Source: Giardia intestinalis (taxonomy: Eukaryota). Taken from it: a stretch of 64,000 nucleotides of DNA. Shown here one piece after another: positions 29,872 through 54,622 of the stretch. A model generated the notes under the pieces. That model ran no database searches and was not told where the DNA came from. It worked only from the letters and a program-made list of their open reading frames with translations. The first letter of the stretch is position 1, and each line of letters starts with the position of its first letter. The DNA lies in the NCBI GenBank assembly GCA_000002435.2, contig CM018791.1, one strand, 5' to 3'. Position numbers and translations under genes: made by a program.

Positions 29872-32286
29872 ATGATGGTACTTCTACCATTCTTGCTATT
29901 GCTATATGGCACACTTGGCAGAGAGCCTTCCCCCTTGTGGGAGGGTGACGACCAGATGGACCCCGAGGGCGGCACGATATTCCCCTCCGAGGATGAATAC
30001 AACGAGCTTCCCGATGGACCCGACAACGCAGATCTGACCCGCGCAGCGCTCCCTACCAACTTCACCTACCGGGGCCACCGGTGCATCCAGATCATAAACC
30101 AGGGCTCGTGCGGCTGCTGCTACGCGGCGGCGGCGGTGGAGATGGTCACTGCCCGGCGGTGCCTCCAGCTCAACGACAGCAGGCTTGTGAGCCTCGAGGA
30201 CCTCGTCACGTGCGACCACACCAAGTATCTGAACATCCAGAACAACGGGTGCCGTGGCGGCAATTCCCTTGCGTCGCTGAAGTTCGGAGAGACGACGGGC
30301 ATGGTGTACGACACCTGCGAGGACTACTGGAACCGGACGTATCCCTACCCCACGGAGACGTGCAAGACCGTCTGCAAGGATAAGCGCCCCAAGGACCGCA
30401 CCATTAAGAACAAGGCGCCCTACAGGCTCAGCGGCGTGGACGCGATGATGCGCGACATATACCAGAACGGGCCCATTGCGGTCTCCATGTACCTGGCCAA
30501 CGACTTCCCCTCCAAGGACAAGAAGGGCATCTACAGCTCCGGCCCCAATACGAAGCTGGGGGGAGGCCACGCCGTGATGATAGTCGGGTGGGGCGAGGAG
30601 AACGGTGTACCCTACTGGGACTGTGCGAACACGTACGGCACCAATTGGGGCGACCAAGGCTACTTCAAGATCAAGCGCGGGTCCAACGAGCTCAAGATCG
30701 AGACGTGGCCCGGTTCAGCGCTGCCTATAGACACGACTCCTAAGCCGGAGCCCCAAAACGGCACAATCACTGTAGAGGCGGCCAAAACGTACATTGCTGG
30801 ATACGAGATTGCAATACCGTACAAGGAGGTAGCGACCCCTGCAGAGCTCCAGCTGAAGTCAGAAGCAGGAGCGGTGACGTCGCTCGTTAAGCTGACGACC
30901 TCTAGTGGCACCGCCCGCGTTACCATACCTCGAGACACGTCTGCAGGGCAATACTACCTGACAACCAGCACTGGAGACGCAACGTCTGCGCGCTTCTCGT
31001 TGGCGTCCTACTTCACGCTGGCATTCGACAAGACTAGCTATCAGGGACAGGAGGGAGAGAGCGTCACACTCCGGTTCGCTGCACCGCTCCAGGTGCCCTG
31101 CAAGTTGATGGACGGCGCGTCTGTGCTGATGGAGCTCAGTAAGGGGGCGCAGTCCTGCGTGGCCCCGTCGAGCATGAGCGCTGGCAGGCATGCGCTGACC
31201 CTGACCACGTCCGACACCGTTCCCGTCCTATCCGCAAGCGCAGTGCTCACAATAGAGAAGAAGCACAACGATGAAGCAGTCATCACGATATCCAACCCGG
31301 TCGCCGGCGCACAGGTGACTGCGTTGGCCGAGGGCCTGCAGATTTCGTACGCCTCAACGGGGACGAGTGCAAAGCTGCTTCTCCAGGCGTATTGCGGAGA
31401 GCGACTGCTGGATGTCATCGCTGCTGGCCTGCCTCCCTCGGGAAGCATCGAGGTCCGCCTGCCGTCTTCCTATGGCAACTGCTCAGCTGCGTACCTCCGA
31501 CTGCGCTCAGAGACGTCCCCCTTCGCGTACGCCGATGTGGGACCGCTGCATGTCACGTCGTACGGCTACCCTGCAGATGATCTCCCGGCCCCGTCTGATA
31601 AGAAGGATCCCGTGCCCGACCCGGAACCACAGCCCGACCCAGATCCCGAACCTGAGCCCGAACCTGAGCCTATTGGCGACGTGCCCCTGCTTATTACGGA
31701 GCCGTCTACGCAGAGTGTCTGGGTCCCCGGCGGTGCAGTTACAATCCGATGGACCAGCAACCTAACGGCCAGCACTGAGATGACGATCCTTTTGTACGAA
31801 AAGGTCGGATCGAAAAGCTACCTGCGCCACACGTTCACCCGCTCTGCCCCTAACACGGGGCTCTATGCCGACACTCTTCCGGCCTCTGTCCCCTCTGGCC
31901 CTAACTACTTCGTCCGCATGCGCTCCAACAGTCCCATGTTCACGAACACTTCGGATGACTTTGAGGTCAAGGCGAGCAGATACCTGGTCAGAGACGTTCC
32001 AGACGCCATTACTGTGCGGGATCCTCTGAGCTTCACTATCCATAGGCACGGGTTTGTGTTTCCCTTGCCTCGTAGAAGGTTCTCGGTCACGCTAATGCAG
32101 GCAGGAAAGGAGGTTTGTGCACTTGACGGAGTCGAGGGAGTGGCAGGACTCAACACGATCTATCTAGATAGCTGTGCTGAGAGGATGCAGGAGCTCCGAG
32201 ACAAACAATACTACCTAAAGCTATGCTCTCAGAAGATGGAGTGCACGGTAACGCCGACTTTCACGGTACTAGATGACACTCATTGA
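29872..32286 (+). CDS. cathepsin B-like (papain family C1) cysteine protease with long C-terminal extension
   Basis: Verified ATG with leader ggaaataaaATG and signal peptide MMVLLPFLLLLYGTLG. The active-site motifs are NQGSCGCCYAAA (catalytic Cys), GGGHAVMIVGWG (His) and NTYGTNWGDQGYFKIKRG (Asn). These are followed by ~480 aa of extension including the acidic linker PDPEPQPDPDPEPEPEPEP. Confidence 0.8.
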   Translation: MMVLLPFLLLLYGTLGREPSPLWEGDDQMDPEGGTIFPSEDEYNELPDGPDNADLTRAALPTNFTYRGHRCIQIINQGSCGCCYAAAAVEMVTARRCLQLNDSRLVSLEDLVTCDHTKYLNIQNNGCRGGNSLASLKFGETTGMVYDTCEDYWNRTYPYPTETCKTVCKDKRPKDRTIKNKAPYRLSGVDAMMRDIYQNGPIAVSMYLANDFPSKDKKGIYSSGPNTKLGGGHAVMIVGWGEENGVPYWDCANTYGTNWGDQGYFKIKRGSNELKIETWPGSALPIDTTPKPEPQNGTITVEAAKTYIAGYEIAIPYKEVATPAELQLKSEAGAVTSLVKLTTSSGTARVTIPRDTSAGQYYLTTSTGDATSARFSLASYFTLAFDKTSYQGQEGESVTLRFAAPLQVPCKLMDGASVLMELSKGAQSCVAPSSMSAGRHALTLTTSDTVPVLSASAVLTIEKKHNDEAVITISNPVAGAQVTALAEGLQISYASTGTSAKLLLQAYCGERLLDVIAAGLPPSGSIEVRLPSSYGNCSAAYLRLRSETSPFAYADVGPLHVTSYGYPADDLPAPSDKKDPVPDPEPQPDPDPEPEPEPEPIGDVPLLITEPSTQSVWVPGGAVTIRWTSNLTASTEMTILLYEKVGSKSYLRHTFTRSAPNTGLYADTLPASVPSGPNYFVRMRSNSPMFTNTSDDFEVKASRYLVRDVPDAITVRDPLSFTIHRHGFVFPLPRRRFSVTLMQAGKEVCALDGVEGVAGLNTIYLDSCAERMQELRDKQYYLKLCSQKMECTVTPTFTVLDDTH

Positions 32287-35200
32287 CACACTCTGATGAA
32301 CTAGATGGTAAATCTATCCTAAGCAAAGATGTTGTCGGTTACACTGGACAGACTGTCATAAGCTCCTTCCCTTCATAGCCGACCGACTTTACCGAGGCTC
32401 CGAGAAGAACAGGCCGACACCAGTTTATGCCGAGCATGCCACCAACACACCAGCCAGCCAAAACCTCTGACATTAGCGCTCACTCCTTCATCCAGACAAG
32501 TATCTAGCAAAGCCTAGAGCCCCGTGCCCTTGTTTCATTCTGCTGTAGGAGCGAAACCCAGAGGCGTCCCAAGTTCTCTGTACTCGACATAGCGAGAGGC
32601 CAAAACTAGGATAGGGACCGTCTTACCACTGCAGACCAGTGTAGGCGCACATAGAACCGCAGCAGAGAGGATCCTAGAGGCATCCTTAGCATCTTCGTAC
32701 TAAGAAGGCCAGAGCTGGACAGAGCCCCTTTTCTATAATCCAACTGGAGTCCGGCACTAGTATTGGGGGAGTAAGATCCTAGCCCCTAGAGCGCAAAAGG
32801 CACAGGGTAATCCGATCCAAAGCAATCTATTCTCGACACGCATTGCAGCCAGCGCCCTCAGCAGCATACGAACAAAAGGCATGCACTTCCGATTATGCAG
32901 ATCAACACAATCCATTATACGGCACAGCCACTTTTGCCAGACGAATCCCTGTGCATGGAGGCATCCAACTAAGCTACGGAGACAGCGTGGGCCAGCTGGG
33001 CGCCGAACGTATACAGAAGAGCGACATATTAGTAAGGCACCTTGTTAGAGATTCGAGCCGTACAGCGTTATCACTAGGGGACTGCTGCAGAGAAAACTGT
33101 GAGAGGATGAGGAACAACTGGATTGCCATACAACCGGCTCGAAGCAAAACCACTTTGCATGACAGAACAGCTCTCCGTGTCAATATGAATATTGTCATCG
33201 AGAATGGCTCAGGGAAGAGAAGCACATGGTCAGAGCGGATGGTATAGGAACAAGGTGTTGTTTGCCAGAACTGCGACGTGGGTGCCCAGATTACCAGATT
33301 CTGGAGGTAGATGGCATCGGTGCTTTTAGTCCTGCAAGATCCCATTGTCTGCCTTATGGCAATCTCAGAACACACGCCTAAGTGGAGAGATAGGGCGCCA
33401 CCAAGGAGTAAACAAGAGAAGTTAAAGTGCAAACCTGTCGTTGGGGTCTAGTCTTTCATGCCTACACTACCCCTGACAAGGATGCATCCAACCACTCAGC
33501 TGCTCGAGATTGGAATCAGTACACCGGAAATGTTATGGCAGAATGAGGTATTCAATTGTTAGTGCTAGGTGTGGATTTTATTCTTATGTAGGGCTAAGTA
33601 GTATGATTAAACAGGTGCCCAGAGGCTTCATAGGGGAATGAATAAGGAGCCATCAGCGAGTTCGATGCTTGGGCTATAGTGTAACAGACAGAACGAGGAA
33701 GCGGGACTCTCTCCCGTGGTGCATCATGCTACTCTACTATTTCATGCGAAGAACAGCTTTGTTGCAAGGGCTCTGTATCCCCATGGCCTATCGGCTAGGG
33801 TCCGCCATCACATAATGTCGCTATCTATATCACCGGGCTTTCTATCGCTATGTAAGTCAGAGCTGCCTTCTCTGCATCATCACTGTATCAATGTACTGTG
33901 CCAGCAAAATCCTACTGTCTTACATGACACGATAGAGGTAGGCACGTTGCACATAACGAGTCCATTCACGGACAGGGGGTTTTGAGGCCTTTTATCTTTG
34001 CTTTTTCTGGCATCGTCTATCAGTAAAAGTATCCAGCAGTGCCCGAGCCCAGCAATTCAACTACTGCAACGGTGGGTGCGCAGTGAGTCTAACGCGATCA
34101 TCATATGAAGACTGCACAACGCCAGGGATATTCTGTTGGATGCTCCTATCGGACTTGGTATCAAGAATGGCATGAAGGGGACATGACCATCACATAGGCT
34201 GCGTGGTACCAGTAGTGTTAGCACAGTAGCAGATCTGGATAGGCCTGAAGGTAGACAAAGCCTACAAGCAAGTGACTCGTCCTCTTTGCTGCTACAACAG
34301 GTGCAATAGCACGTGGGTCCAAAGTCTAACCATCTGGGTCACAACTGTTACATATCGAAGGAGTGGACCGCATGGGATGCAGGCACGTGCAATGAGGAAT
34401 GTGAGAAGGCCACCTGGTCCAAACAGTGTCCCTGCTACTACTGTCCTCATTGCGTGGTGCACTCCATACCTAGAGTTCCGGGCTCAGACTGAACCCTGAG
34501 CCAACCCTCGAGAGATCCCATCTCCAGAAGGATGCGTCCTTCACTGTCTATGGCAGCGGGGTCAAAGAACTATGGCCCAAGTGCAGTCAGACTGGTTCGG
34601 TGTGGGGTGCAAGCGCCCACTATTCTCTCTCTGGCCGTCCAGTACCATGTGTTCTGTATCAGACAGGCAGGATCTGACGTTGCACAACACAAGAGCCCTT
34701 CCAGGATGTGCAGGGGGCTGTGTGATCTGTGATGGTGGCGCGTCTCTACCTTCGAAGATGCTGGCAGAGCCAGTGAGCCTAGTGAAGTACACCGGTAGCT
34801 ATAGCGTACCGAATGGATCAAGCCCTTTGCATCCGGTCACGAATTATGCCTTTGTAACAGACCACAGGTGAAGCGGGAAACTTAGCCCTGATGGTGGCAC
34901 GACTGTAATGGCTGGTGAGTCCAGAGTAACCGCCGAATTGGAGCCGTCGATGTGGTTTTCAACAAGGTACAGCAGAGCGTATGAGCCAGCTGAGCACTGA
35001 TGCTGGGCTTCTGAAGAGCTGGGGCTTGGACCTCTCAGATGAAGCAGGGTGAATTGTGTTGTCCTTGCTGAGTAATCTTAGAATCTCAAAGTGTCTGGAT
35101 CCGTACTTGCGTGTCCGTCAAAACCCACAGTGTGCTTTGGGACCGCACTAGTTGATAGGTCGAGATATTTGAGAAGAGCTTTGCTGTCTTCTGCCATCAG

Positions 35201-38200
35201 CATGCGCTGTCTCGTGGACCCATCCTGAGGTTACGCCCTTGAGTGACCAGAGGGGACCAAATGCCAGCAGAGCTGGTCAGCGAGGCAAGCCTGCTACAAG
35301 CAGCTTGTCGATCTAGCGAAAGGCATACCTACGGCGAAGAAGAGCATCTTGCACCAGTTGAGTGTGACTTAGGGCTAGGGGCGAATTGGGGGCTGGATCT
35401 GCGAACGACCGCCATTTTGCATCATCCTTGTGGCCATGACTAGGCCATCCAGGCAACACGCCTCGATACGGGCGCAGAGACTTGGAGAGTAGGATGCCCC
35501 CATAGGTTTGTTGCTTGAGTACTAAAAAATCCGGAACAACAATAACGGCTGCTGTCTCCTCGGGATGCCCATCTGTCCATAGGATCGGTCGTTCTAGCTT
35601 TGATCCACTGGACAAGTAGCCTAGGGGTATTCTGTGCCACAGTCTGACACACAGTGCAGTACAGGTACTCGTAAGCACAGCAATACAGGGGAGGGGAGTA
35701 GCATGAGCAGCCGGCGCGTTATGCTCCTGGTTGTGTACTGTAGCTTCCGCCTGTATAAAGCTACACTGAGCTAGCACGTCCTATTACCTTCCGGCGATGA
35801 CTGTCTCTACCACTGCGTTCGCTACAACAAGAGACGTATACGCCTGACAAATTAAGCAGATATTGCGGCATCCTTCTCTAGTAGCGTATACAGGCCCGCA
35901 CAATGCCATAGTAGATAGAGTAGATGTCATTTCATCTAAGGTGTCTACTTTGATGGAAGACAGCGCTCGGTTATACTAGAGATGCTTCTGTTTAAGCATA
36001 AGGTCTTTACGACTGCTTATCCATCAGCTACAGTGACAGCTGTATACCCAAAAGGATCCTGCAGAGCGCTCCGCCATCTTTCAAGGTGAAACATAGATAT
36101 GCGTACAAAGCTAAAAATAGAAATCTGTGCATCAAATGTCATAACCCTAGTGTGATGACTGGCCTAAATCACAATGCACTCGTCAAGAGCTTGTATACTC
36201 GCTTGCATACTCGCTATTAGTATTAAGCAAGAATACAGGGAGATTTGCCTCTGGTTGCGCTCACCTCATAATGTCTAGTCCTCGGTGACACGCTTCAAGG
36301 AGGAAGAATGTCTGCTAGGTGCTTGGAAGACTATCCGTGCATGGCGGCTCCTAGAGAGCCGGTTCGCATGGAGAATGTAAGGGTAATCAACAGATCAGTG
36401 AGATAAAACTGACGCTACAGAGACTAGCTATTAGCTCGGATTACAGCAGGGACACCTGTAATGCCTCTCTGACCTCTAAACCTGGAGAGGTCGTAGGGTC
36501 TGCAGACAAGCTGGACGCTGCTTTTTGATTTTATGCATTTACGGCAGCGTAATATCTATCAAGAGTTGCTTCGTTTGGAGCCGAGGGTATTCACCTTCCC
36601 TTCGTATACAGATGAGGAGCGATTGTAGAGATCTCCACAGGCTGGTACCGGTCGATATGGTCACTATCCACACTGTCTCAGCTGCGTCCTCCCATGCCAG
36701 ATGGACACCAATAATGCTTCTTGGCCACATGACGTCCTACGATGCATCTCCACCTTCGACACAGGTTGCTACACACACTGCGTAGTTTAGATTGCTCATT
36801 AGCCAAGGTGATCTGATCAGCTCTTGTCCTCTGCCCGTCTATCTCGTGCAACCACTACTGATGGCCTTTCCAGATCAGCGAGTGCTTCCATCGGTCCCGC
36901 AAGGGCATACGTCATACAGGCGACCACTACGGACTAGGGTCCTGTCTACCAAAGAAAGGGTCAACCAGTTTACTACGTAGGCATTCATTGTGCGTCTCAT
37001 ATAGTCCGGCAGGTCTTGTGCTCTCCAACATTCCCTCGCAAGCCTCCGACTAAAGCCATGCATATCGTTATTGACAAGCACCTTAGCTTTATTCGACCAC
37101 TTAGGGCGTTAGATCCTTTGCCCTGTACAGTGGGTATGCTCAGCGTGGGAGGTTCACAATCAGCATTAGCTTTCTTGGCTCATTGTTTGAGTAATACTGT
37201 CATTGCTTCTCGATTCAACTAGCAACTCAACTAATGGTCTCAAATGCAAATGATAACTCACCAGTAGGTAGTCAGCAATAACTGTGGCGCATATCTCCGC
37301 CAAGACACGGCTTCCTGAGCAGGGGCATGAAGTGGGCCTCTGCCATTCTACGGTCCTGCTGCTCCCTCGGATAGCAAGGATCGGAACAGCCTAGGCTAAC
37401 ATTGATCGCTTCCGGGTCTCCATCTGTCCTCGTTGTCTGAGGTAGGCTTGACTTCATAAACTGAAAGGTACTGCACTGTACTCTGGATCTGCGAAATTCA
37501 ATTAGGCAGGGCTGCCATTTCGGTGGCTGCACTGATGTAGCTGCGCACCCCGCAGGACCTCCAGAGAGCATTACAGCTCAATGGAACCCTTTATTTGTCT
37601 AATGCAAGTTGTAGCTGTGACCTTATAGGTGCAGGACTTTCTAGAATAACCGGCCAACTACAGAGTTCGCTCATTCATGTAGAGCCAACGAATAGAGAGT
37701 AACATCAGTTTCGTCGATCGTCTACAACGCACATCAGTCAAATCTCACAGGCGAGTAAGCCCCATCCACCCCGCAGCAATAAGCATCAGTAGGTGTTCTT
37801 CATAACGATAAGTAGACAGGCTTTCAACAATCACAGCACCCGCTTTCCTGTTGAAGACCTTCCAGTCACTAGCCTAGGTCAGCTTCCTACAAGATCCGTG
37901 ATGGAATTGTATCAGAAATGCATGCTTATGGGACTCCCAGCTCAAGATGTATGCTGCTGGATCCCACTTTCCATACCAGTCTGTGTACGGCGGTTCTTTT
38001 GGCCCCTAGTGGAGCCATAGAAGATTGCAGGATATGATGTCCTCAGTAGGGCTTTATCTGACTCCTATAGCTATATGACAAGAAGATCCCGGCCTTCTAT
38101 GCATTATTTAACGCATGCTAAGGTGCACTAGTACAACCCCTACAGTGTGGCATGATTCGTGAGTCAAGAGGTAGGACGCTTACGCTGATTGGCATGTCTC

Positions 38201-39289
38201 CTCAGGGCCAACTACAGCTCGGACCAAAGGTCATGAGCGAATGCTATTCGATTCCCTTATCAACAGATGGGGGTCAACTGCTCTAACACCCACAGGAGGT
38301 CACAAAAGGTACTGGACCAGGCATCCGGCCAACGCCTGGCAAACCAGCGCGGTCTCCTTGGATTCTATTCTTTCCTCACAAGCATCCACATGTAGGAAGC
38401 TCTGAGGGCTTAAAGCCTTACACTAGCAGGCTCAAAGTACTGCAAACCCGGCTGCCTCCACTAGCGATGGTAGCGACAGCACTAGGATGATCCAGAGGGG
38501 AGGATAAGAGTCCTGCTCCATCAGTTTAGGGGGTGACACAGTTTGGGCAAGGTTTTCTCCTTGTCTAGATTTAGGAGTGCTGGCCTACGCTCTCTGAAGC
38601 CCAATTGACACCCTGTCATGCGATAGGATATCTTAAAGTATTCATTACAAAAGATCAGAAATAGCGCCATGCACACCCAACAAACCAGAGCGCCTCGTAG
38701 GCTAATCTATACTGATTCACACTTCTACGGGCCTTAGCGATCACTGTAGCCTTTTCTCGGGATCTCGCACAAGACTGTCCTTGAGTGCGGTTCTCTCACG
38801 ACAGCCGGGAGTCGCAGACATAATCTAAGGAAGTGATGATGCAACAGAGGCGGAAACGAGGTCATCGGCGCATGGGGGTCCGTAGGGGCCCGATCCGCGC
38901 AAGGAAGGCACAGGGAGCTGACTCATCAGGGACGTAGAGACCCCAGGAGAGGAGCCAGCAACGAACCCACGGCACAGCAGGGGCACCTGAGCTGTCTTTT
39001 GATTGGCCGCAGGGTAGAGAGGCGGCGAGCGTGTGAAGAAGTTTCACCACCTATTTTTGGATTTTTTGTTTCCCTGCGTGTTGTGCAGGGGGTATGGAGT
39101 TCAGGCCCAGAGAGCTCGCGTGGGCTGTATGCAGTAGATGTACTTAGTATTTGATGAGCTTCTATGTCCTAAGCAGAGGTATCGTAGGAGACGAATCTCT
39201 TTGGATTAATTAGCACAGTATATAGTAAGTCAGGTCTTTAGTCTTAAGTATTTTATTCTTACTCATGCGATAAGCTGAGAAGGACCTCA

Positions 39290-40945: not shown

Positions 40946-40959
40946 ATGTGTACTTAGGT

Positions 40960-40966
40960 AGTAAAC
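40960..40966 (+). terminator. Giardia polyadenylation signal (AGTRAAY) downstream of VSP
   Basis: agtaaac lies 15 nt after the VSP stop (tag 40943-40945) and matches the known Giardia AGTPuAAPy consensus. Confidence 0.5.
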
Positions 40967-43063: not shown

Positions 43064-43610
43064 CAGAGGCACATACAACACCCCACCCGGTCCCACCAGT
43101 CCCCTCCGGCCTCACCGCCCCAGCAACCCAGCCTCACCGCCCAGCCCCCACCGCCTCACCCACCAGCTGGTCGCTATAAGACCCAAGTGACCGCGACTGT
43201 AAAGCGCTGACCCAGATCCACAGCTGACCGGACACCGAGGAGCCCAGCCAGCGGAGAGCCCGGTGGCAGCCCCTGACAGACGGGGCATCTAAAAAAGGAC
43301 GGCGACCAGAGCTTCACCCACCACGAAGGAAGACCAAGGAGAGGCCCCACCGGTAGAGCAGAGAGTCTACAAGAAGGCCTGAATCCAAGGCAGATCGGCA
43401 TGGATATCCAGACAGAGCATATCCTCATGGAGTGGCCGAGGAATGCCCAGACTCTGAATATATCACTGGAGAGGACCCTCTTGTTATGCTATCCATGACC
43501 AACAGTCGTCTCTGAACTGACCAGGAAGGAGCGATGATTACCCGCACGATCTCTGGGCCACACTCAGATAGCCCCAGCAGCATAGTGTAATAAATCATAT
43601 ACAGTGACGC

Positions 43611-43617
43611 GTTTACT
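43611..43617 (-). terminator. polyadenylation signal (AGTAAAC) of right-arm VSP copy
   Basis: Mirror of 40960..40966; gtttact on + equals agtaaac on -. Confidence 0.5.
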
Positions 43618-43631
43618 ACCTAAGTACACAT

Positions 43632-45287: not shown

Positions 45288-48200
45288 TGAGGTCCTTCTC
45301 AGCTTATCGCATGAGTAAGAATAAAATACTTAAGACTAAAGACCTGACTTACTATATACTGTGCTAATTAATCCAAAGAGATTCGTCTCCTACGATACCT
45401 CTGCTTAGGACATAGAAGCTCATCAAATACTAAGTACATCTACTGCATACAGCCCACGCGAGCTCTCTGGGCCTGAACTCCATACCCCCTGCACAACACG
45501 CAGGGAAACAAAAAATCCAAAAATAGGTGGTGAAACTTCTTCACACGCTCGCCGCCTCTCTACCCTGCGGCCAATCAAAAGACAGCTCAGGTGCCCCTGC
45601 TGTGCCGTGGGTTCGTTGCTGGCTCCTCTCCTGGGGTCTCTACGTCCCTGATGAGTCAGCTCCCTGTGCCTTCCTTGCGCGGATCGGGCCCCTACGGACC
45701 CCCATGCGCCGATGACCTCGTTTCCGCCTCTGTTGCATCATCACTTCCTTAGATTATGTCTGCGACTCCCGGCTGTCGTGAGAGAACCGCACTCAAGGAC
45801 AGTCTTGTGCGAGATCCCGAGAAAAGGCTACAGTGATCGCTAAGGCCCGTAGAAGTGTGAATCAGTATAGATTAGCCTACGAGGCGCTCTGGTTTGTTGG
45901 GTGTGCATGGCGCTATTTCTGATCTTTTGTAATGAATACTTTAAGATATCCTATCGCATGACAGGGTGTCAATTGGGCTTCAGAGAGCGTAGGCCAGCAC
46001 TCCTAAATCTAGACAAGGAGAAAACCTTGCCCAAACTGTGTCACCCCCTAAACTGATGGAGCAGGACTCTTATCCTCCCCTCTGGATCATCCTAGTGCTG
46101 TCGCTACCATCGCTAGTGGAGGCAGCCGGGTTTGCAGTACTTTGAGCCTGCTAGTGTAAGGCTTTAAGCCCTCAGAGCTTCCTACATGTGGATGCTTGTG
46201 AGGAAAGAATAGAATCCAAGGAGACCGCGCTGGTTTGCCAGGCGTTGGCCGGATGCCTGGTCCAGTACCTTTTGTGACCTCCTGTGGGTGTTAGAGCAGT
46301 TGACCCCCATCTGTTGATAAGGGAATCGAATAGCATTCGCTCATGACCTTTGGTCCGAGCTGTAGTTGGCCCTGAGGAGACATGCCAATCAGCGTAAGCG
46401 TCCTACCTCTTGACTCACGAATCATGCCACACTGTAGGGGTTGTACTAGTGCACCTTAGCATGCGTTAAATAATGCATAGAAGGCCGGGATCTTCTTGTC
46501 ATATAGCTATAGGAGTCAGATAAAGCCCTACTGAGGACATCATATCCTGCAATCTTCTATGGCTCCACTAGGGGCCAAAAGAACCGCCGTACACAGACTG
46601 GTATGGAAAGTGGGATCCAGCAGCATACATCTTGAGCTGGGAGTCCCATAAGCATGCATTTCTGATACAATTCCATCACGGATCTTGTAGGAAGCTGACC
46701 TAGGCTAGTGACTGGAAGGTCTTCAACAGGAAAGCGGGTGCTGTGATTGTTGAAAGCCTGTCTACTTATCGTTATGAAGAACACCTACTGATGCTTATTG
46801 CTGCGGGGTGGATGGGGCTTACTCGCCTGTGAGATTTGACTGATGTGCGTTGTAGACGATCGACGAAACTGATGTTACTCTCTATTCGTTGGCTCTACAT
46901 GAATGAGCGAACTCTGTAGTTGGCCGGTTATTCTAGAAAGTCCTGCACCTATAAGGTCACAGCTACAACTTGCATTAGACAAATAAAGGGTTCCATTGAG
47001 CTGTAATGCTCTCTGGAGGTCCTGCGGGGTGCGCAGCTACATCAGTGCAGCCACCGAAATGGCAGCCCTGCCTAATTGAATTTCGCAGATCCAGAGTACA
47101 GTGCAGTACCTTTCAGTTTATGAAGTCAAGCCTACCTCAGACAACGAGGACAGATGGAGACCCGGAAGCGATCAATGTTAGCCTAGGCTGTTCCGATCCT
47201 TGCTATCCGAGGGAGCAGCAGGACCGTAGAATGGCAGAGGCCCACTTCATGCCCCTGCTCAGGAAGCCGTGTCTTGGCGGAGATATGCGCCACAGTTATT
47301 GCTGACTACCTACTGGTGAGTTATCATTTGCATTTGAGACCATTAGTTGAGTTGCTAGTTGAATCGAGAAGCAATGACAGTATTACTCAAACAATGAGCC
47401 AAGAAAGCTAATGCTGATTGTGAACCTCCCACGCTGAGCATACCCACTGTACAGGGCAAAGGATCTAACGCCCTAAGTGGTCGAATAAAGCTAAGGTGCT
47501 TGTCAATAACGATATGCATGGCTTTAGTCGGAGGCTTGCGAGGGAATGTTGGAGAGCACAAGACCTGCCGGACTATATGAGACGCACAATGAATGCCTAC
47601 GTAGTAAACTGGTTGACCCTTTCTTTGGTAGACAGGACCCTAGTCCGTAGTGGTCGCCTGTATGACGTATGCCCTTGCGGGACCGATGGAAGCACTCGCT
47701 GATCTGGAAAGGCCATCAGTAGTGGTTGCACGAGATAGACGGGCAGAGGACAAGAGCTGATCAGATCACCTTGGCTAATGAGCAATCTAAACTACGCAGT
47801 GTGTGTAGCAACCTGTGTCGAAGGTGGAGATGCATCGTAGGACGTCATGTGGCCAAGAAGCATTATTGGTGTCCATCTGGCATGGGAGGACGCAGCTGAG
47901 ACAGTGTGGATAGTGACCATATCGACCGGTACCAGCCTGTGGAGATCTCTACAATCGCTCCTCATCTGTATACGAAGGGAAGGTGAATACCCTCGGCTCC
48001 AAACGAAGCAACTCTTGATAGATATTACGCTGCCGTAAATGCATAAAATCAAAAAGCAGCGTCCAGCTTGTCTGCAGACCCTACGACCTCTCCAGGTTTA
48101 GAGGTCAGAGAGGCATTACAGGTGTCCCTGCTGTAATCCGAGCTAATAGCTAGTCTCTGTAGCGTCAGTTTTATCTCACTGATCTGTTGATTACCCTTAC

Positions 48201-51200
48201 ATTCTCCATGCGAACCGGCTCTCTAGGAGCCGCCATGCACGGATAGTCTTCCAAGCACCTAGCAGACATTCTTCCTCCTTGAAGCGTGTCACCGAGGACT
48301 AGACATTATGAGGTGAGCGCAACCAGAGGCAAATCTCCCTGTATTCTTGCTTAATACTAATAGCGAGTATGCAAGCGAGTATACAAGCTCTTGACGAGTG
48401 CATTGTGATTTAGGCCAGTCATCACACTAGGGTTATGACATTTGATGCACAGATTTCTATTTTTAGCTTTGTACGCATATCTATGTTTCACCTTGAAAGA
48501 TGGCGGAGCGCTCTGCAGGATCCTTTTGGGTATACAGCTGTCACTGTAGCTGATGGATAAGCAGTCGTAAAGACCTTATGCTTAAACAGAAGCATCTCTA
48601 GTATAACCGAGCGCTGTCTTCCATCAAAGTAGACACCTTAGATGAAATGACATCTACTCTATCTACTATGGCATTGTGCGGGCCTGTATACGCTACTAGA
48701 GAAGGATGCCGCAATATCTGCTTAATTTGTCAGGCGTATACGTCTCTTGTTGTAGCGAACGCAGTGGTAGAGACAGTCATCGCCGGAAGGTAATAGGACG
48801 TGCTAGCTCAGTGTAGCTTTATACAGGCGGAAGCTACAGTACACAACCAGGAGCATAACGCGCCGGCTGCTCATGCTACTCCCCTCCCCTGTATTGCTGT
48901 GCTTACGAGTACCTGTACTGCACTGTGTGTCAGACTGTGGCACAGAATACCCCTAGGCTACTTGTCCAGTGGATCAAAGCTAGAACGACCGATCCTATGG
49001 ACAGATGGGCATCCCGAGGAGACAGCAGCCGTTATTGTTGTTCCGGATTTTTTAGTACTCAAGCAACAAACCTATGGGGGCATCCTACTCTCCAAGTCTC
49101 TGCGCCCGTATCGAGGCGTGTTGCCTGGATGGCCTAGTCATGGCCACAAGGATGATGCAAAATGGCGGTCGTTCGCAGATCCAGCCCCCAATTCGCCCCT
49201 AGCCCTAAGTCACACTCAACTGGTGCAAGATGCTCTTCTTCGCCGTAGGTATGCCTTTCGCTAGATCGACAAGCTGCTTGTAGCAGGCTTGCCTCGCTGA
49301 CCAGCTCTGCTGGCATTTGGTCCCCTCTGGTCACTCAAGGGCGTAACCTCAGGATGGGTCCACGAGACAGCGCATGCTGATGGCAGAAGACAGCAAAGCT
49401 CTTCTCAAATATCTCGACCTATCAACTAGTGCGGTCCCAAAGCACACTGTGGGTTTTGACGGACACGCAAGTACGGATCCAGACACTTTGAGATTCTAAG
49501 ATTACTCAGCAAGGACAACACAATTCACCCTGCTTCATCTGAGAGGTCCAAGCCCCAGCTCTTCAGAAGCCCAGCATCAGTGCTCAGCTGGCTCATACGC
49601 TCTGCTGTACCTTGTTGAAAACCACATCGACGGCTCCAATTCGGCGGTTACTCTGGACTCACCAGCCATTACAGTCGTGCCACCATCAGGGCTAAGTTTC
49701 CCGCTTCACCTGTGGTCTGTTACAAAGGCATAATTCGTGACCGGATGCAAAGGGCTTGATCCATTCGGTACGCTATAGCTACCGGTGTACTTCACTAGGC
49801 TCACTGGCTCTGCCAGCATCTTCGAAGGTAGAGACGCGCCACCATCACAGATCACACAGCCCCCTGCACATCCTGGAAGGGCTCTTGTGTTGTGCAACGT
49901 CAGATCCTGCCTGTCTGATACAGAACACATGGTACTGGACGGCCAGAGAGAGAATAGTGGGCGCTTGCACCCCACACCGAACCAGTCTGACTGCACTTGG
50001 GCCATAGTTCTTTGACCCCGCTGCCATAGACAGTGAAGGACGCATCCTTCTGGAGATGGGATCTCTCGAGGGTTGGCTCAGGGTTCAGTCTGAGCCCGGA
50101 ACTCTAGGTATGGAGTGCACCACGCAATGAGGACAGTAGTAGCAGGGACACTGTTTGGACCAGGTGGCCTTCTCACATTCCTCATTGCACGTGCCTGCAT
50201 CCCATGCGGTCCACTCCTTCGATATGTAACAGTTGTGACCCAGATGGTTAGACTTTGGACCCACGTGCTATTGCACCTGTTGTAGCAGCAAAGAGGACGA
50301 GTCACTTGCTTGTAGGCTTTGTCTACCTTCAGGCCTATCCAGATCTGCTACTGTGCTAACACTACTGGTACCACGCAGCCTATGTGATGGTCATGTCCCC
50401 TTCATGCCATTCTTGATACCAAGTCCGATAGGAGCATCCAACAGAATATCCCTGGCGTTGTGCAGTCTTCATATGATGATCGCGTTAGACTCACTGCGCA
50501 CCCACCGTTGCAGTAGTTGAATTGCTGGGCTCGGGCACTGCTGGATACTTTTACTGATAGACGATGCCAGAAAAAGCAAAGATAAAAGGCCTCAAAACCC
50601 CCTGTCCGTGAATGGACTCGTTATGTGCAACGTGCCTACCTCTATCGTGTCATGTAAGACAGTAGGATTTTGCTGGCACAGTACATTGATACAGTGATGA
50701 TGCAGAGAAGGCAGCTCTGACTTACATAGCGATAGAAAGCCCGGTGATATAGATAGCGACATTATGTGATGGCGGACCCTAGCCGATAGGCCATGGGGAT
50801 ACAGAGCCCTTGCAACAAAGCTGTTCTTCGCATGAAATAGTAGAGTAGCATGATGCACCACGGGAGAGAGTCCCGCTTCCTCGTTCTGTCTGTTACACTA
50901 TAGCCCAAGCATCGAACTCGCTGATGGCTCCTTATTCATTCCCCTATGAAGCCTCTGGGCACCTGTTTAATCATACTACTTAGCCCTACATAAGAATAAA
51001 ATCCACACCTAGCACTAACAATTGAATACCTCATTCTGCCATAACATTTCCGGTGTACTGATTCCAATCTCGAGCAGCTGAGTGGTTGGATGCATCCTTG
51101 TCAGGGGTAGTGTAGGCATGAAAGACTAGACCCCAACGACAGGTTTGCACTTTAACTTCTCTTGTTTACTCCTTGGTGGCGCCCTATCTCTCCACTTAGG

Positions 51201-52290
51201 CGTGTGTTCTGAGATTGCCATAAGGCAGACAATGGGATCTTGCAGGACTAAAAGCACCGATGCCATCTACCTCCAGAATCTGGTAATCTGGGCACCCACG
51301 TCGCAGTTCTGGCAAACAACACCTTGTTCCTATACCATCCGCTCTGACCATGTGCTTCTCTTCCCTGAGCCATTCTCGATGACAATATTCATATTGACAC
51401 GGAGAGCTGTTCTGTCATGCAAAGTGGTTTTGCTTCGAGCCGGTTGTATGGCAATCCAGTTGTTCCTCATCCTCTCACAGTTTTCTCTGCAGCAGTCCCC
51501 TAGTGATAACGCTGTACGGCTCGAATCTCTAACAAGGTGCCTTACTAATATGTCGCTCTTCTGTATACGTTCGGCGCCCAGCTGGCCCACGCTGTCTCCG
51601 TAGCTTAGTTGGATGCCTCCATGCACAGGGATTCGTCTGGCAAAAGTGGCTGTGCCGTATAATGGATTGTGTTGATCTGCATAATCGGAAGTGCATGCCT
51701 TTTGTTCGTATGCTGCTGAGGGCGCTGGCTGCAATGCGTGTCGAGAATAGATTGCTTTGGATCGGATTACCCTGTGCCTTTTGCGCTCTAGGGGCTAGGA
51801 TCTTACTCCCCCAATACTAGTGCCGGACTCCAGTTGGATTATAGAAAAGGGGCTCTGTCCAGCTCTGGCCTTCTTAGTACGAAGATGCTAAGGATGCCTC
51901 TAGGATCCTCTCTGCTGCGGTTCTATGTGCGCCTACACTGGTCTGCAGTGGTAAGACGGTCCCTATCCTAGTTTTGGCCTCTCGCTATGTCGAGTACAGA
52001 GAACTTGGGACGCCTCTGGGTTTCGCTCCTACAGCAGAATGAAACAAGGGCACGGGGCTCTAGGCTTTGCTAGATACTTGTCTGGATGAAGGAGTGAGCG
52101 CTAATGTCAGAGGTTTTGGCTGGCTGGTGTGTTGGTGGCATGCTCGGCATAAACTGGTGTCGGCCTGTTCTTCTCGGAGCCTCGGTAAAGTCGGTCGGCT
52201 ATGAAGGGAAGGAGCTTATGACAGTCTGTCCAGTGTAACCGACAACATCTTTGCTTAGGATAGATTTACCATCTAGTTCATCAGAGTGTG

Positions 52291-54520
52291 TCAATGAGTG
52301 TCATCTAGTACCGTGAAAGTCGGCGTTACCGTGCACTCCATCTTCTGAGAGCATAGCTTTAGGTAGTATTGTTTGTCTCGGAGCTCCTGCATCCTCTCAG
52401 CACAGCTATCTAGATAGATCGTGTTGAGTCCTGCCACTCCCTCGACTCCGTCAAGTGCACAAACCTCCTTTCCTGCCTGCATTAGCGTGACCGAGAACCT
52501 TCTACGAGGCAAGGGAAACACAAACCCGTGCCTATGGATAGTGAAGCTCAGAGGATCCCGCACAGTAATGGCGTCTGGAACGTCTCTGACCAGGTATCTG
52601 CTCGCCTTGACCTCAAAGTCATCCGAAGTGTTCGTGAACATGGGACTGTTGGAGCGCATGCGGACGAAGTAGTTAGGGCCAGAGGGGACAGAGGCCGGAA
52701 GAGTGTCGGCATAGAGCCCCGTGTTAGGGGCAGAGCGGGTGAACGTGTGGCGCAGGTAGCTTTTCGATCCGACCTTTTCGTACAAAAGGATCGTCATCTC
52801 AGTGCTGGCCGTTAGGTTGCTGGTCCATCGGATTGTAACTGCACCGCCGGGGACCCAGACACTCTGCGTAGACGGCTCCGTAATAAGCAGGGGCACGTCG
52901 CCAATAGGCTCAGGTTCGGGCTCAGGTTCGGGATCTGGGTCGGGCTGTGGTTCCGGGTCGGGCACGGGATCCTTCTTATCAGACGGGGCCGGGAGATCAT
53001 CTGCAGGGTAGCCGTACGACGTGACATGCAGCGGTCCCACATCGGCGTACGCGAAGGGGGACGTCTCTGAGCGCAGTCGGAGGTACGCAGCTGAGCAGTT
53101 GCCATAGGAAGACGGCAGGCGGACCTCGATGCTTCCCGAGGGAGGCAGGCCAGCAGCGATGACATCCAGCAGTCGCTCTCCGCAATACGCCTGGAGAAGC
53201 AGCTTTGCACTCGTCCCCGTTGAGGCGTACGAAATCTGCAGGCCCTCGGCCAACGCAGTCACCTGTGCGCCGGCGACCGGGTTGGATATCGTGATGACTG
53301 CTTCATCGTTGTGCTTCTTCTCTATTGTGAGCACTGCGCTTGCGGATAGGACGGGAACGGTGTCGGACGTGGTCAGGGTCAGCGCATGCCTGCCAGCGCT
53401 CATGCTCGACGGGGCCACGCAGGACTGCGCCCCCTTACTGAGCTCCATCAGCACAGACGCGCCGTCCATCAACTTGCAGGGCACCTGGAGCGGTGCAGCG
53501 AACCGGAGTGTGACGCTCTCTCCCTCCTGTCCCTGATAGCTAGTCTTGTCGAATGCCAGCGTGAAGTAGGACGCCAACGAGAAGCGCGCAGACGTTGCGT
53601 CTCCAGTGCTGGTTGTCAGGTAGTATTGCCCTGCAGACGTGTCTCGAGGTATGGTAACGCGGGCGGTGCCACTAGAGGTCGTCAGCTTAACGAGCGACGT
53701 CACCGCTCCTGCTTCTGACTTCAGCTGGAGCTCTGCAGGGGTCGCTACCTCCTTGTACGGTATTGCAATCTCGTATCCAGCAATGTACGTTTTGGCCGCC
53801 TCTACAGTGATTGTGCCGTTTTGGGGCTCCGGCTTAGGAGTCGTGTCTATAGGCAGCGCTGAACCGGGCCACGTCTCGATCTTGAGCTCGTTGGACCCGC
53901 GCTTGATCTTGAAGTAGCCTTGGTCGCCCCAATTGGTGCCGTACGTGTTCGCACAGTCCCAGTAGGGTACACCGTTCTCCTCGCCCCACCCGACTATCAT
54001 CACGGCGTGGCCTCCCCCCAGCTTCGTATTGGGGCCGGAGCTGTAGATGCCCTTCTTGTCCTTGGAGGGGAAGTCGTTGGCCAGGTACATGGAGACCGCA
54101 ATGGGCCCGTTCTGGTATATGTCGCGCATCATCGCGTCCACGCCGCTGAGCCTGTAGGGCGCCTTGTTCTTAATGGTGCGGTCCTTGGGGCGCTTATCCT
54201 TGCAGACGGTCTTGCACGTCTCCGTGGGGTAGGGATACGTCCGGTTCCAGTAGTCCTCGCAGGTGTCGTACACCATGCCCGTCGTCTCTCCGAACTTCAG
54301 CGACGCAAGGGAATTGCCGCCACGGCACCCGTTGTTCTGGATGTTCAGATACTTGGTGTGGTCGCACGTGACGAGGTCCTCGAGGCTCACAAGCCTGCTG
54401 TCGTTGAGCTGGAGGCACCGCCGGGCAGTGACCATCTCCACCGCCGCCGCCGCGTAGCAGCAGCCGCACGAGCCCTGGTTTATGATCTGGATGCACCGGT
54501 GGCCCCGGTAGGTGAAGTTG
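52291..54520 (-). pseudogene. 5'-truncated copy of cathepsin B-like protease (no ATG, no signal/pro region)
   Basis: Identical to the left copy from ...NFTYRGHRCIQ onward. The palindrome boundary at 54520 replaces the first 62 codons with unrelated sequence. The track 'M' at 54642 is TTG, and an in-frame stop (tga) lies 5 codons upstream. The first in-frame ATG comes only after the catalytic Cys. Confidence 0.6.
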
Positions 54521-54622
54521 CCAGCTCTGGACAAGTTATGATGTGGGCCACCAGGTCTCTTCAGTGCCTGATGATGACATCCTGTTAGCACAAAGTAAAT
54601 CTGCAAGTCCAAGTGGAGATAT

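What the first reader, a model, noticed from the sequence alone, without database searches (positions are those of the whole stretch)
30057..54520. ~24.5 kb near-perfect palindrome carrying convergent identical VSP genes and duplicated cathepsin-B-like genes
Two ~11.4 kb arms (30057..41512 and 43064..54520) are exact reverse complements. Mirrored ORF coordinates all sum to 84577 with no indel over ~11.2 kb, and the arms flank a 1.55 kb unique spacer. Each arm carries, from the outside in, a cathepsin-B-like protease, ~7 kb of ORF-poor DNA, and a VSP gene. VSP genes are known to occur in inverted pairs in Giardia, but a base-perfect 11-kb arm pair is striking. It implies a very recent duplication or ongoing gene conversion, and could fold back as a hairpin or cruciform. 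It should also be excluded as an assembly or fold-back library artefact.
Basis: seen in the sequence. Interest (0 to 1): 0.8.

Follow-up and report, generated by a model that had tools for sequence, protein, structure and literature searches.

The report
Old Giardia VSP palindrome, conversion-maintained
This is a real, already catalogued inverted pair of identical surface-antigen (VSP) genes on Giardia WB chromosome 3. Its 11-kb mirror-image arms are not a fresh duplication but an old one, most likely kept base-identical by copying between the arms.

Summary
The palindrome is real. Arms 30057-41263 and 43314-54520 are exact reverse complements (11,207 bp, 0 mismatches). Inside them lies a 250-bp imperfect inverted repeat, then a 1,549-bp unique centre.

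The locus is the published pair vsp7.1/7.2 = GL50803_136003/136004 (551 aa, 2,686 bp apart). The left cathepsin-B-like gene is intact. The right copy is cut at codon 62 and has no start codon or signal peptide.

The duplication is not recent. A contig from a strain about 2% diverged (L012) crosses the right junction at the same nucleotide, and AII-type proteins carry the same junction. About 220 arm-to-arm differences would be expected without homogenisation; none are seen. Twelve WB-derived substitutions sit on both arms. I infer arm-to-arm gene conversion.

An assembly artefact is excluded, because every boundary recurs in independent data.

Two further results:
- The spacer belongs to a multi-copy, VSP-3'-linked module family (80-91% identity).
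- The AII counterpart matches WB at 98% down to about 36631, then drops to 55-70%, which suggests a swapped inner VSP cassette.

A cruciform is unlikely, since the loop would be at least 1.5 kb. The feature is known in kind and as a member, so interest is moderate.

The parts
30057..41263 (+). Left perfect arm (11,207 bp). It is taken as the original copy because it is continuous with an intact gene and with conserved left-flank synteny.
   Evidence: Left-flank gene order is conserved in P15 and assemblage B.
43314..54520 (-). Right perfect arm, the exact reverse complement of 30057-41263.
29872..32286 (+). Intact cathepsin-B-like cysteine protease (804 aa: signal peptide, Peptidase_C1, Kre9_KNH-like C-terminal part). 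It corresponds to KAE8303242 / XP_001710319. The repeat starts at its codon 62 (nt 30057).
52291..54520 (-). 5'-truncated copy of the cathepsin gene. It has no ATG or signal peptide. In WB it is annotated from Met91-equivalent (52291-54435, 714 aa, KAE8303245), a product that would lack the catalytic-Cys motif CGCCY at residues 80-84.
32287..36630 (+). Outer ORF-poor DNA, part of the conserved 'frame'. The tested stretch 36445-36630 is 98% identical to the AII-type contig L005. The mirror copy is 47947-52290.
   Evidence: RNA-seq contigs L001-L003 extend to 32427-33418.
36631..39289 (+). Inner ORF-poor DNA upstream of the VSP, part of the lineage-specific 'cassette'. It is only 55-77% identical to L005, with an abrupt switch at about 36631. 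The mirror copy is 45288-47946.
39290..40945 (+). VSP gene vsp7.1 / GL50803_136003 (551 aa). It has the Inr CAATGTT at the ATG, a CRGKA tail, and the polyadenylation signal AGTAAA at 40960.
43632..45287 (-). VSP gene vsp7.2 / GL50803_136004, identical to vsp7.1 and convergent with it.
41264..41513 (+). Left inner imperfect inverted repeat: a 142-nt patch 84% identical to its partner, then a perfect 108-nt G-rich block with 22-nt repeats and a G4 motif at 41472-41495.
43063..43313 (-). Right inner imperfect inverted repeat, the partner of 41264-41513.
41514..43062 (.). Unique centre (1,549 bp). It is T-poor on the + strand (14% T). It shows no Pfam hit, no Rfam hit and no similarity to VSP proteins. 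It belongs to a multi-copy VSP-3' spacer family (80-95% identity in 100-column blocks to L005-L009, with a dip to about 55% near 41800).
54521..54622 (.). The 102 bp between the right outer junction (54520/54521) and the ATG of the ankyrin-repeat gene (54623-56818 +).

Best explanation
The locus is an old inverted segmental duplication (a large palindrome) on chromosome 3 of Giardia intestinalis assemblage A. It is built around the catalogued tail-to-tail VSP pair vsp7.1/7.2 (GL50803_136003/136004).

Origin (inferred). One arm, the left, is original. The other is a copy that ends inside the cathepsin-B-like gene and is joined 102 bp upstream of an ankyrin gene. The copy therefore carries a full second VSP gene but only a dead, 5'-truncated cathepsin copy. 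The centre is one member of a conserved module of about 2.6 kb: roughly 0.5 kb of imperfect inverted repeat, about 1.55 kb of oriented centre, then the second inverted repeat. This module follows VSP genes at several loci. It is the most likely seed of the palindrome, by fold-back or template switching at its short inverted repeats.

Maintenance (inferred from comparison, not observed directly). The arms are base-identical because they are repeatedly homogenised by intrachromosomal arm-to-arm gene conversion. The inner approximately 250 bp and the centre lie outside the homogenised region.

Turnover (inferred). Within this conserved frame, the inner approximately 4.9 kb of each arm (VSP, its 2.7-kb upstream DNA and its 3' flank) plus the centre differ between the AI and AII lineages. 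This looks like replacement of the VSP cassette by ectopic recombination with a paralogous unit, followed by copying to the opposite arm.
For: Shown:
1. The arms are perfect over 11,207 bp. The inner 142-nt patch is 84% identical, followed by a 108-nt perfect block and a 1,549-bp unique centre.
2. The locus matches published tables: 551 aa, 2,686 bp apart, chr 3, 136003/136004; vsp7 with 3' divergence 318 (572) and ORF distance 2,687. The VSP is 100% identical to WB KAE8303243/44.
3. The right cathepsin copy is truncated at codon 62.
4. L012 (Logan SRR18693200, 7,925 bp) aligns without gaps to window 60118-52194 at 97.93%. It crosses 54520/54521, and its match to the left arm starts exactly at 30057. 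Divergence is 1.96% in the unique flank and 2.32% in the arm.
5. Proteins with the right-type junction ('...LSRAG|NFTYRGHRC') occur with a WB-type body (P0145, P0150) and with an AII-type body (P0144). Left-type AII copies (P0140 from DH, P0146) and P0144 share an AII-specific C-terminal frameshift. It is also present in P0149, which I infer to be right-type, and in the fragments P0142 and P0147.
6. Twelve nucleotide substitutions in the cathepsin segment are derived in WB relative to L012 and the P15/B outgroups. All 12 are on both WB arms.
7. About 220 arm-to-arm differences would be expected from the flank divergence; 0 are observed.
8. The spacer is a family. Contigs L005-L009, from three different metagenome assemblies, align at 80-87% to window 40800-43770 and at 81-91% to each other.
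9. L006 has the module, with its own 77-100% inverted repeats, next to a single VSP and housekeeping-type genes.
10. The VSP on L005 is 100% identical to DH (AII) ESU34817. L005 is 98% identical to WB over 36445-36630 and drops abruptly to 55-77% inward of that. The AII truncated cathepsin (P0149) and this VSP (P0151) both report a longest contig of 11,519 bp, the size of one arm.
Against: - No reads could be examined, so the continuity of each 11.2-kb arm in WB rests on the published PacBio and optical-map assembly.
- The lineage of L012 is unidentified. Its arm shares at least 5 derived amino acids with the WB chr-5 paralogue P0139. Inter-locus exchange or paralogy therefore complicates the history, although either way the junction is older than about 2% divergence.
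- In AII the left-type and right-type copies are not identical: 3-4 of 681 aa differ between P0146 and P0144/P0149, and 14 of 681 between P0140 and P0144. Homogenisation is therefore episodic rather than continuous.
- The link of the AII cassette to the cathepsin on one contig is inferred from equal contig lengths and was not read. L005 is a metagenome contig, and its 186-nt high-identity end could in principle be a shared repeat.
- The fold-back origin is not testable from one junction, and no microhomology is visible there.
Confidence: 0.8

Rival explanations
1. The palindrome is a very recent one-off inverted duplication in the WB lineage. The arms are identical simply because there has been no time to diverge.
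For: There are 0 differences in 11,207 bp. Adam et al. 2010 suggested that the identical VSP pairs are evolutionarily recent duplications. No VSP more than 83% identical was found outside WB.
Against: The same breakpoint, to the nucleotide, is present in L012, whose unique flank is 1.96% diverged from WB. It is also present in AII-type gene products. Twelve WB-derived substitutions are on both arms. The 142-nt inner patch is 16% diverged, and part of its left/right differences are shared with the two inverted-repeat copies of the paralogous locus L006.
Confidence: 0.06
2. The structure is an assembly or library artefact: a fold-back chimera or a mis-joined collapsed repeat. Only one arm exists.
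For: Perfect palindromes are a known product of chimeric long reads. I could not inspect reads or depth.
Against: The VSP-spacer-VSP core, with the same distances (318/572 nt; 2,687 bp), was assembled from Sanger reads in 2010. The left junction is in Logan contigs L001-L003. The right junction is in the independent Logan/ENA calls P0145, P0150, P0144 and P0128, and in L012. Both junctions, and both spacer edges with their side-specific differences, cannot exist if there is only one arm. The WB annotation carries both copies (KAE8303242-245).
Confidence: 0.02
3. The same inverted duplication formed independently, and repeatedly, in different lineages at a hotspot. A shared junction would then not mean shared ancestry, and no gene conversion would be needed.
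For: The spacer module with its inverted repeats is present at many VSP loci and could trigger fold-back events repeatedly. G4 motifs sit at the inner boundary.
Against: The outer junction lies in ordinary coding sequence on one side and in an intergenic stretch on the other. There is no repeat or microhomology that would make the identical nucleotide be chosen twice. The flank-encoded residues are the same in WB, L012 and AII-type products.
Confidence: 0.04
4. The duplication was made by a transposable element. The ORF-poor DNA and the spacer would be retrotransposon or DNA-transposon relics that mobilised the VSP.
For: A 2022 preprint reports transposable-element relics around duplicated VSP pairs and reverse-transcriptase remnants between head-to-head pairs. 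Xu 2020 lists pseudo-RT between 4 head-to-head pairs. The spacer module has terminal inverted repeats and is multi-copy.
Against: Stop-free segments of 45 aa or more from all six frames of the 7-kb DNA and of the spacer gave no Pfam domain (RT, integrase or transposase) at E<=1. Xu's table lists no gene between tail-to-tail pairs, including this one. The outer junction cuts a host gene, with no element end there.
Confidence: 0.08

Closest known systems
Giardia identical inverted VSP pairs (vsp1267; the 14 pairs of Adam et al. 2010, BMC Genomics 11:424; the 19-20 pairs of Xu et al. 2020, Sci Data 7:38, and the 2022 bioRxiv preprint 10.1101/2022.03.07.483299; also 7 pairs in G. muris, PMC7641422)
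   Same: This is one of them: vsp7.1/7.2 = GL50803_136003/136004, tail-to-tail, 551 aa, 2,686-2,687 bp apart, with 3' divergence at 318 (572) nt.
   Different: For tail-to-tail pairs the published tables give no 5' extent. Here the identical arms run 9.2 kb upstream of the VSP start and include most of a cathepsin-B-like gene. The papers I read call the pairs recent or 'cryptic'. The comparison here indicates an old structure with homogenised arms.
Primate sex-chromosome palindromes (human Y P1-P8).
   Same: Both have large arms with near-100% identity around a unique spacer. In both, the boundaries are shared between diverged lineages while arm-to-arm identity exceeds between-lineage identity, which is the classic signature of arm-to-arm gene conversion.
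   Different: The Giardia arms are smaller (11 kb versus 9 kb-1.45 Mb). The organism is a tetraploid, largely asexual protist. The cargo is an antigenic-variation gene, and the inner cassette appears to be exchanged with paralogous loci.
Fold-back (hairpin-primed) inverted duplications seeded by short inverted repeats: yeast and mammalian palindrome formation, and human inverted duplications with kb-size spacers.
   Same: There is an inverted duplication with a single-copy spacer of about 1.5-2 kb, bounded by a pre-existing short imperfect inverted repeat. One arm ends at an arbitrary point inside a gene.
   Different: The event is ancient and interstitial. No terminal deletion or junction microhomology can be shown. 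This is a proposal for the origin only.
G-quadruplex- or break-initiated gene conversion at antigenic-variation loci (Neisseria pilE G4, trypanosome VSG). From my own knowledge; PMC13233330 was only seen as a title.
   Same: Non-reciprocal copying at a surface-antigen locus. Three of the four strict G4 motifs in the 64-kb window lie at the inner palindrome boundary.
   Different: G4 motifs are present in L006 but absent from the other four family members. Giardia VSP switching is regarded as epigenetic or RNA-based rather than recombinational. No functional link was tested.

Membership tests
Giardia identical inverted VSP pair (tail-to-tail) | Both ORFs are bona fide VSPs, with signal peptide, CXXC-rich ectodomain, TM segment and CRGKA tail | tested here: met
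   Pfam VSP PF03302 at E=1.3e-75. The sequence starts MLLVAFYFVLSALA and ends CRGKA. Inr CAATGTT and PAS AGTAAA are present.
Giardia identical inverted VSP pair (tail-to-tail) | Identical coding sequences in convergent orientation, separated by 2-4 kb of non-coding DNA | tested here: met
   ORFs 39290-40945(+) and 43632-45287(-) both lie within the perfect arms. They are 2,686 bp apart, and the intervening DNA has no Pfam hit.
Giardia identical inverted VSP pair (tail-to-tail) | The 3' flanks are identical up to an abrupt divergence point a few hundred nt past the stop codon | tested here: met
   Identity ends 318 nt past the stop and resumes for 108 nt, up to 568 nt past the stop. Adam 2010 Table 5 gives '318 (572)' for vsp7.
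Giardia identical inverted VSP pair (tail-to-tail) | It is the catalogued pair 136003/136004 of WB chromosome 3 | tested here: met
   551 aa and 2,686 bp. Supplement entry: vsp7.1/7.2, chr 3. 100% identity to KAE8303243/KAE8303244 on a 1,973,847-bp WB record.
Palindrome maintained by arm-to-arm gene conversion (Y-chromosome type) | Long arms of near-100% identity around a unique spacer | tested here: met
   11,207 bp at 100% identity, with a unique centre of 1,549 bp.
Palindrome maintained by arm-to-arm gene conversion (Y-chromosome type) | Palindrome boundaries are shared by diverged lineages, so the structure is older than the split | tested here: met
   The right outer junction is identical to the nucleotide in L012, whose flank is 1.96% diverged. 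The same junction peptide occurs in AII-type products. Inner boundaries in other lineages were not read for the same locus, apart from L005.
Palindrome maintained by arm-to-arm gene conversion (Y-chromosome type) | Arm-to-arm divergence is far below between-lineage divergence, and derived substitutions are shared by both arms | tested here: met
   0 differences versus 2.32% to L012 in the arm. Twelve polarised WB-derived sites are on both arms. An AII-specific frameshift is on both left-type and right-type copies.
Palindrome maintained by arm-to-arm gene conversion (Y-chromosome type) | Direct observation of conversion events or tracts within a population or pedigree | not testable with these tools
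   This needs reads or several long-read genomes of the same lineage.
Fold-back (hairpin-primed) inverted duplication | A pre-existing short inverted repeat at the edges of the spacer that could anneal intrastrand | tested here: inconclusive
   The 250-bp imperfect inverted repeat (41264-41513 / 43063-43313) is older than the arms, because it shares side-specific variants with L006. L006 also shows the module with inverted repeats beside a single VSP. This could equally be the residue of a deleted arm.
Fold-back (hairpin-primed) inverted duplication | An outer junction with microhomology or an adjacent deletion | tested here: inconclusive
   No shared bases are visible immediately outside 30057/54520. 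The pre-duplication sequence is unknown.
Functional papain-family (C1) cathepsin B-like gene (right copy) | A start codon plus signal peptide upstream of the catalytic-Cys motif | tested here: not met
   The right ORF enters unrelated flank at codon 62. Its first in-frame ATG is Met91-equivalent, downstream of CGCCY at residues 80-84. The left copy meets this criterion.
Transposon- or retrotransposon-borne duplication | A recognisable RT, integrase or transposase, or element termini at the junctions | tested here: not met
   No Pfam family at E<=1 in the stop-free segments (45 aa or more, all six frames) of 32287-39289 or of the spacer. The junction lies inside a host gene.
Cruciform-extruding perfect palindrome | Arms abut, or are separated by only a few bp | tested here: not met
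   The arms are separated by 2,050 bp, of which 1,549 bp are unique.

The most novel reading that the evidence does not exclude
Tail-to-tail VSP pairs are not accidental recent duplicates. They are long-lived palindromic 'frames', each organised by a conserved, oriented spacer module of about 2.6 kb with imperfect terminal inverted repeats. Inside a frame, a whole VSP cassette (about 2.7 kb of upstream DNA, the ORF and the 3' flank) can be exchanged with paralogous loci and then copied to the opposite arm by gene conversion. The module itself is functional, for example as a conversion or break initiation site (G-rich/G4 block), or as an organiser of convergent VSP transcription that feeds the RNA-based VSP silencing pathway.
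Probability: 0.25. Interest if true: 0.75.

Novelty: already known. Interest (0 to 1): 0.4.

Why it matters
Identical inverted VSP pairs have been called a 'cryptic' feature of the Giardia antigen repertoire and were assumed to be recent. This locus shows something different:

- At least one pair is an old palindrome with homogenised arms.
- Its spacer is a conserved multi-copy module.
- The VSP cassette inside it appears to have been swapped between the AI and AII lineages.

This gives a concrete, testable model for how a largely asexual, tetraploid parasite keeps two perfect copies of an antigen gene and still turns its repertoire over.

It also matters in practice. About 22 kb here is non-uniquely mappable. 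The right 'cathepsin' (KAE8303245) is a truncated copy, not a second protease gene. Expression and variant calls for 136003/136004 and for the cathepsin need multi-mapping-aware handling.

Tried and rejected
- **Protein content of the 7-kb ORF-poor DNA and the spacer.** Stop-free segments of 45 aa or more from all six frames were scanned against Pfam at E<=1, with no hit (the first attempts failed on stop codons). tblastn with 150 VSP and cathepsin proteins gave only spacer-ORF self-family hits in shifting frames, which indicates non-coding DNA. It also gave insignificant VSP traces near 34520-34860 (E>=0.008).
- **RNA genes.** The Rfam gathering scan and the tRNA scan of the whole window found nothing.
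- **Residual palindromy in the centre.** None was found (best self-reverse-complement local score 19).
- **Other WB VSP pairs and the window's own chromosome.** The look-up of encoding contigs returned no record for the window VSP or for P0023. I therefore could not measure the other 12 tail-to-tail pairs or the chr-5 cathepsin paralogue.
- **JGI metagenome scans.** Searches for the right-junction 30-mer and for a conserved 40-mer of the module both gave 0 hits.
- **SRR18693200 (the L012 sample).** It is not mentioned in the paper library, so the lineage is unnamed.
- **L001-L003 as DNA evidence.** I first read these as DNA evidence for the left junction. SRR2642193 is cited in a transcriptome paper, so they are probably RNA-seq contigs. 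They show transcription and sequence identity, not copy number.
- **Bacterial-type promoter/terminator scan.** It is irrelevant for Giardia and was ignored.
- **Dating the palindrome to the A/B/E split.** P15 and assemblage-B contigs end in or just after the cathepsin. Their extra copies have no readable N-terminal junction.
- **Spacer 'flip' between WB and L006.** The side-specific variants hint at it, but L005, L007 and L009 are mosaics. I do not claim it.

Full report
**1. The observation**

Testing every position p against 84577-p gives one unbroken complementary run. It pairs 30057-41263 with 43314-54520: 11,207 bp with no mismatch or indel. The repeat finder reports the same arms, extended to 41318/43259 with a few mismatches. 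It also reports a separate perfect 108-nt pair, 41406-41513 / 43063-43170, whose register is shifted by one base. No other repeat of 60 nt or more exists in the window.

A gapped alignment shows that 41264-41405 and its partner are only 84% identical (16 mismatches, 7 gap columns). Homology then ends abruptly at 41513/43063. The centre, 41514-43062 (1,549 bp), has no residual self-complementarity.

The arms are exact for 11.2 kb, not 11.45 kb.

**2. Gene content**

- Each arm carries an identical 551-aa VSP: 39290-40945 (+) and 43632-45287 (-). Evidence is Pfam VSP at E=1e-75, a CRGKA tail, the VSP initiator CAATGTT at the ATG, and AGTAAA 15 nt after the stop.
- The outer gene is a cathepsin-B-like protease with a Kre9/KNH-like C-terminal region. 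The repeat begins at its codon 62.
- The left copy (29872-32286, 804 aa) has a start codon and signal peptide. The right copy runs into unrelated sequence. Its first in-frame ATG lies after the catalytic-Cys motif.
- WB annotation lists the four products as consecutive accessions KAE8303242-245, with the right cathepsin called from that internal Met (714 aa). No protein gene is annotated in the ORF-poor DNA or in the spacer.
- The right junction lies 102 bp upstream of an ankyrin-repeat gene.
- The roughly 7 kb between cathepsin and VSP has no stop-free stretch above 157 aa, no Pfam hit, no Rfam hit and no tRNA.

**3. Identity of the locus**

- The VSP is 100% identical to a WB clone C6 protein on a 1.97-Mb record.
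- Xu et al. 2020, Table 2, lists on chromosome 3 the pair 136003/136004: convergent, 551 aa, 2,686 bp apart.
- Adam et al. 2010 list the same genes as vsp7.1/7.2, tail-to-tail, with 3' divergence '318 (572)' nt and an ORF distance of 2,687 bp. These are exactly the numbers measured here.
- Identical inverted VSP pairs are thus a published class: 14-20 pairs in WB, and 7 in G. muris. This is a published member.
- For tail-to-tail pairs the papers I read do not give how far the arms run upstream. Xu et al. only note multi-gene duplications of up to 20 kb.

**4. Not an artefact**

- The inner geometry was already present in the Sanger assembly.
- Three Logan contigs (L001-L003) are 100% identical to the window across the left junction. 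They are probably RNA-seq assemblies.
- Independent Logan/ENA gene calls begin in the right flank and continue into the cathepsin ('...LSRAG|NFTYRGHRC': P0145, P0150, P0144, P0128).
- Both outer junctions, and two different spacer edges, cannot coexist with a single arm.

**5. Not recent**

P0128's contig, L012 (SRR18693200, 7,925 bp), aligns without a single gap to window 60118-52194 at 97.93%. It crosses 54520/54521, and its secondary match to the left arm starts exactly at 30057. Divergence is 1.96% in the 5.6-kb unique flank and 2.32% in the arm. The breakpoint therefore predates about 2% of sequence divergence.

Without homogenisation, roughly 220 differences would be expected between the WB arms. 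There are none.

I polarised the L012-WB differences in the cathepsin segment with P15 and assemblage-B orthologues (L010, L011). This gives 12 sites where WB is derived, and all 12 are on both arms.

At the protein level, about 8 residues are unique to the WB chr-3 copies and are shared by the left and right copies. AII-type copies of both junction types share an AII-specific C-terminal frameshift.

This pattern, with paralogues alike within a lineage and orthologues different between lineages, is concerted evolution. I infer arm-to-arm gene conversion. AII left-type and right-type copies differ at 3-14 of 681 residues, so homogenisation is episodic. In WB it was recent and arm-wide.

One complication remains. 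The L012 arm shares at least 5 derived residues with a third WB paralogue on chromosome 5 (P0139), so inter-locus exchange or paralogy is also in play. Either way the junction is old.

**6. The spacer is a module family**

The longest spurious ORF of the centre found seven ORFs in ENA metagenome assemblies. Their contigs (L005, L006 and L008 from one sample; L007 and L009 from two others) align to window 40800-43770 at 80-87%, and to each other at 81-91%.

Protein-level matches change frame, and amino-acid identity (46-75%) is mostly below nucleotide identity. The DNA is therefore non-coding. The long ORFs follow from the T-poor + strand (14% T).

L006 shows the module downstream of a single VSP. 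It has its own inverted repeats (534-963 / 2560-2951, 77-100% complementary), followed directly by housekeeping-type genes. Part of the left/right differences in the WB 142-nt patch are shared with the two inverted-repeat copies in L006, so this asymmetry is ancient.

This explains why published tail-to-tail pairs all sit 2.4-3.2 kb apart and diverge about 320-560 nt past the stop. I propose that the module's short inverted repeats seeded the large palindrome by fold-back or template switching. This is inference. A deleted arm in L006 is an alternative.

**7. A swapped cassette**

- L005's VSP is 100% identical to DH (AII) protein ESU34817 but only 47% identical to vsp7.
- L005 is 98% identical to WB over 36445-36630 (4 mismatches in 186 nt). 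It then drops sharply, after the motif CGATTGTAGAG at about 36631, to 55-77% through the 2.7-kb upstream region. The 3' flank is about 80% identical and the centre about 85%.
- The AII truncated cathepsin (P0149) and this VSP (P0151) both report a longest contig of 11,519 bp, about one arm length.

I conclude that the outer 6.6 kb of each arm is a conserved frame. The inner approximately 4.9 kb plus the centre is a lineage-specific cassette that has been replaced on both arms. I consider this probable, not proven.

**8. Hairpin or cruciform**

With 1,549-2,050 nt between the arms, extrusion from duplex DNA is implausible on general grounds. Intrastrand annealing would need kilobases of single-stranded DNA, for example after resection. 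This was not tested.

Three of the four strict G4 motifs in the window lie in the innermost inverted repeat. They are present in L006 but absent from the other four family members.

**9. Verdict**

- The feature is already known in kind and as a member.
- The additions made here are its age, the homogenisation signature, the spacer module family and the apparent cassette swap. They deserve a check on long-read genomes.

Noticed in passing
Not in the window: WB chromosome 5 (record of 4,018,654 bp), protein P0139 = KAE8304641 / XP_001705840: There is a third, full-length (804 aa) paralogue of the cathepsin-B-like gene, differing from the chr-3 copies at 22 of 681 residues. The arm of L012, which has the chr-3-type right junction, shares at least 5 derived residues with it (G331, T457, N570, G634, M715). 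This suggests inter-locus exchange. P15 and assemblage B also carry 2-3 copies, and the P15 copies share contig lengths with VSP genes from the earlier search.
   Followed up: partly
L006:425-3070 (ENA ERZ27317378 k141_116932): The spacer module, with its own imperfect inverted repeats, lies next to only one VSP. It is followed at once by a 198-aa ORF that looks to me like an acetyltransferase (by eye, not searched) and a 602-aa gene. This is either the pre-palindrome state or a palindrome that lost one arm.
   Followed up: partly
window 41403-41495 (+) and 43037-43161 (-): G-rich 22-nt tandem repeats form G-quadruplex motifs on the sense strand of each VSP, about 460-550 nt past its stop. With loops of 7 nt or less, 3 of the 4 motifs in the whole 64-kb window are here. 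L006 has them at the same place; L005, L007, L008 and L009 do not.
   Followed up: partly
window 41514-43062: The centre shows strong strand asymmetry (+ strand 14% T, 31% C, 30% G, 25% A). This explains the long spurious ORFs on the minus strand. Some blocks (41698-41797, 42623-42814) are 90-95% identical among family members, higher than the adjacent VSP 3' flank. Possible structure or function was not examined.
   Followed up: no
window 41264-41405 versus L006:534-963 / 2560-2951: Relative to the orientation of the centre, the side-specific variants of the inner inverted repeat appear swapped between WB and L006. That would mean the centre has inverted between the repeats in one of them. 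L005, L007 and L009 are mosaics, so the signal is weak.
   Followed up: partly
L001:1-1484 (Logan SRR2642193): The first 1.48 kb of this contig has no match anywhere in the window, although the window extends 23.8 kb further left of the point where the match begins (23812). It may be a chimeric transcript assembly, trans-splicing or a structural difference.
   Followed up: no
window 29872-30056; protein P0148 (Logan, contig 23,499 bp): The unique N-terminal 62 residues of the WB chr-3 cathepsin carry M2 and W23. P0148, whose repeat-encoded body is identical to WB, has T2 and R23 there, as do AII, the chr-5 paralogue, P15 and B. This is either an AI polymorphism just outside the repeat or a chimeric contig.
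   Followed up: no
window 34520-34860 (+), mirror 49717-50057: Several VSP proteins give weak tblastn hits at the same spot in the ORF-poor DNA (best E=0.008, not significant after about 150 queries). The translation contains a CAGGCVIC-like motif. This may be a trace of a decayed Cys-rich gene.
   Followed up: partly
window 52291-54642 (-) and 54623-56818 (+): The open frame of the truncated cathepsin continues through the junction and overlaps the first 20 nt of the divergently oriented ankyrin gene. Logan gene calls start it at TTG codons in the flank (P0128, P0144, P0145, P0150). Whether it is transcribed from the ankyrin gene's bidirectional promoter is unknown.
   Followed up: no
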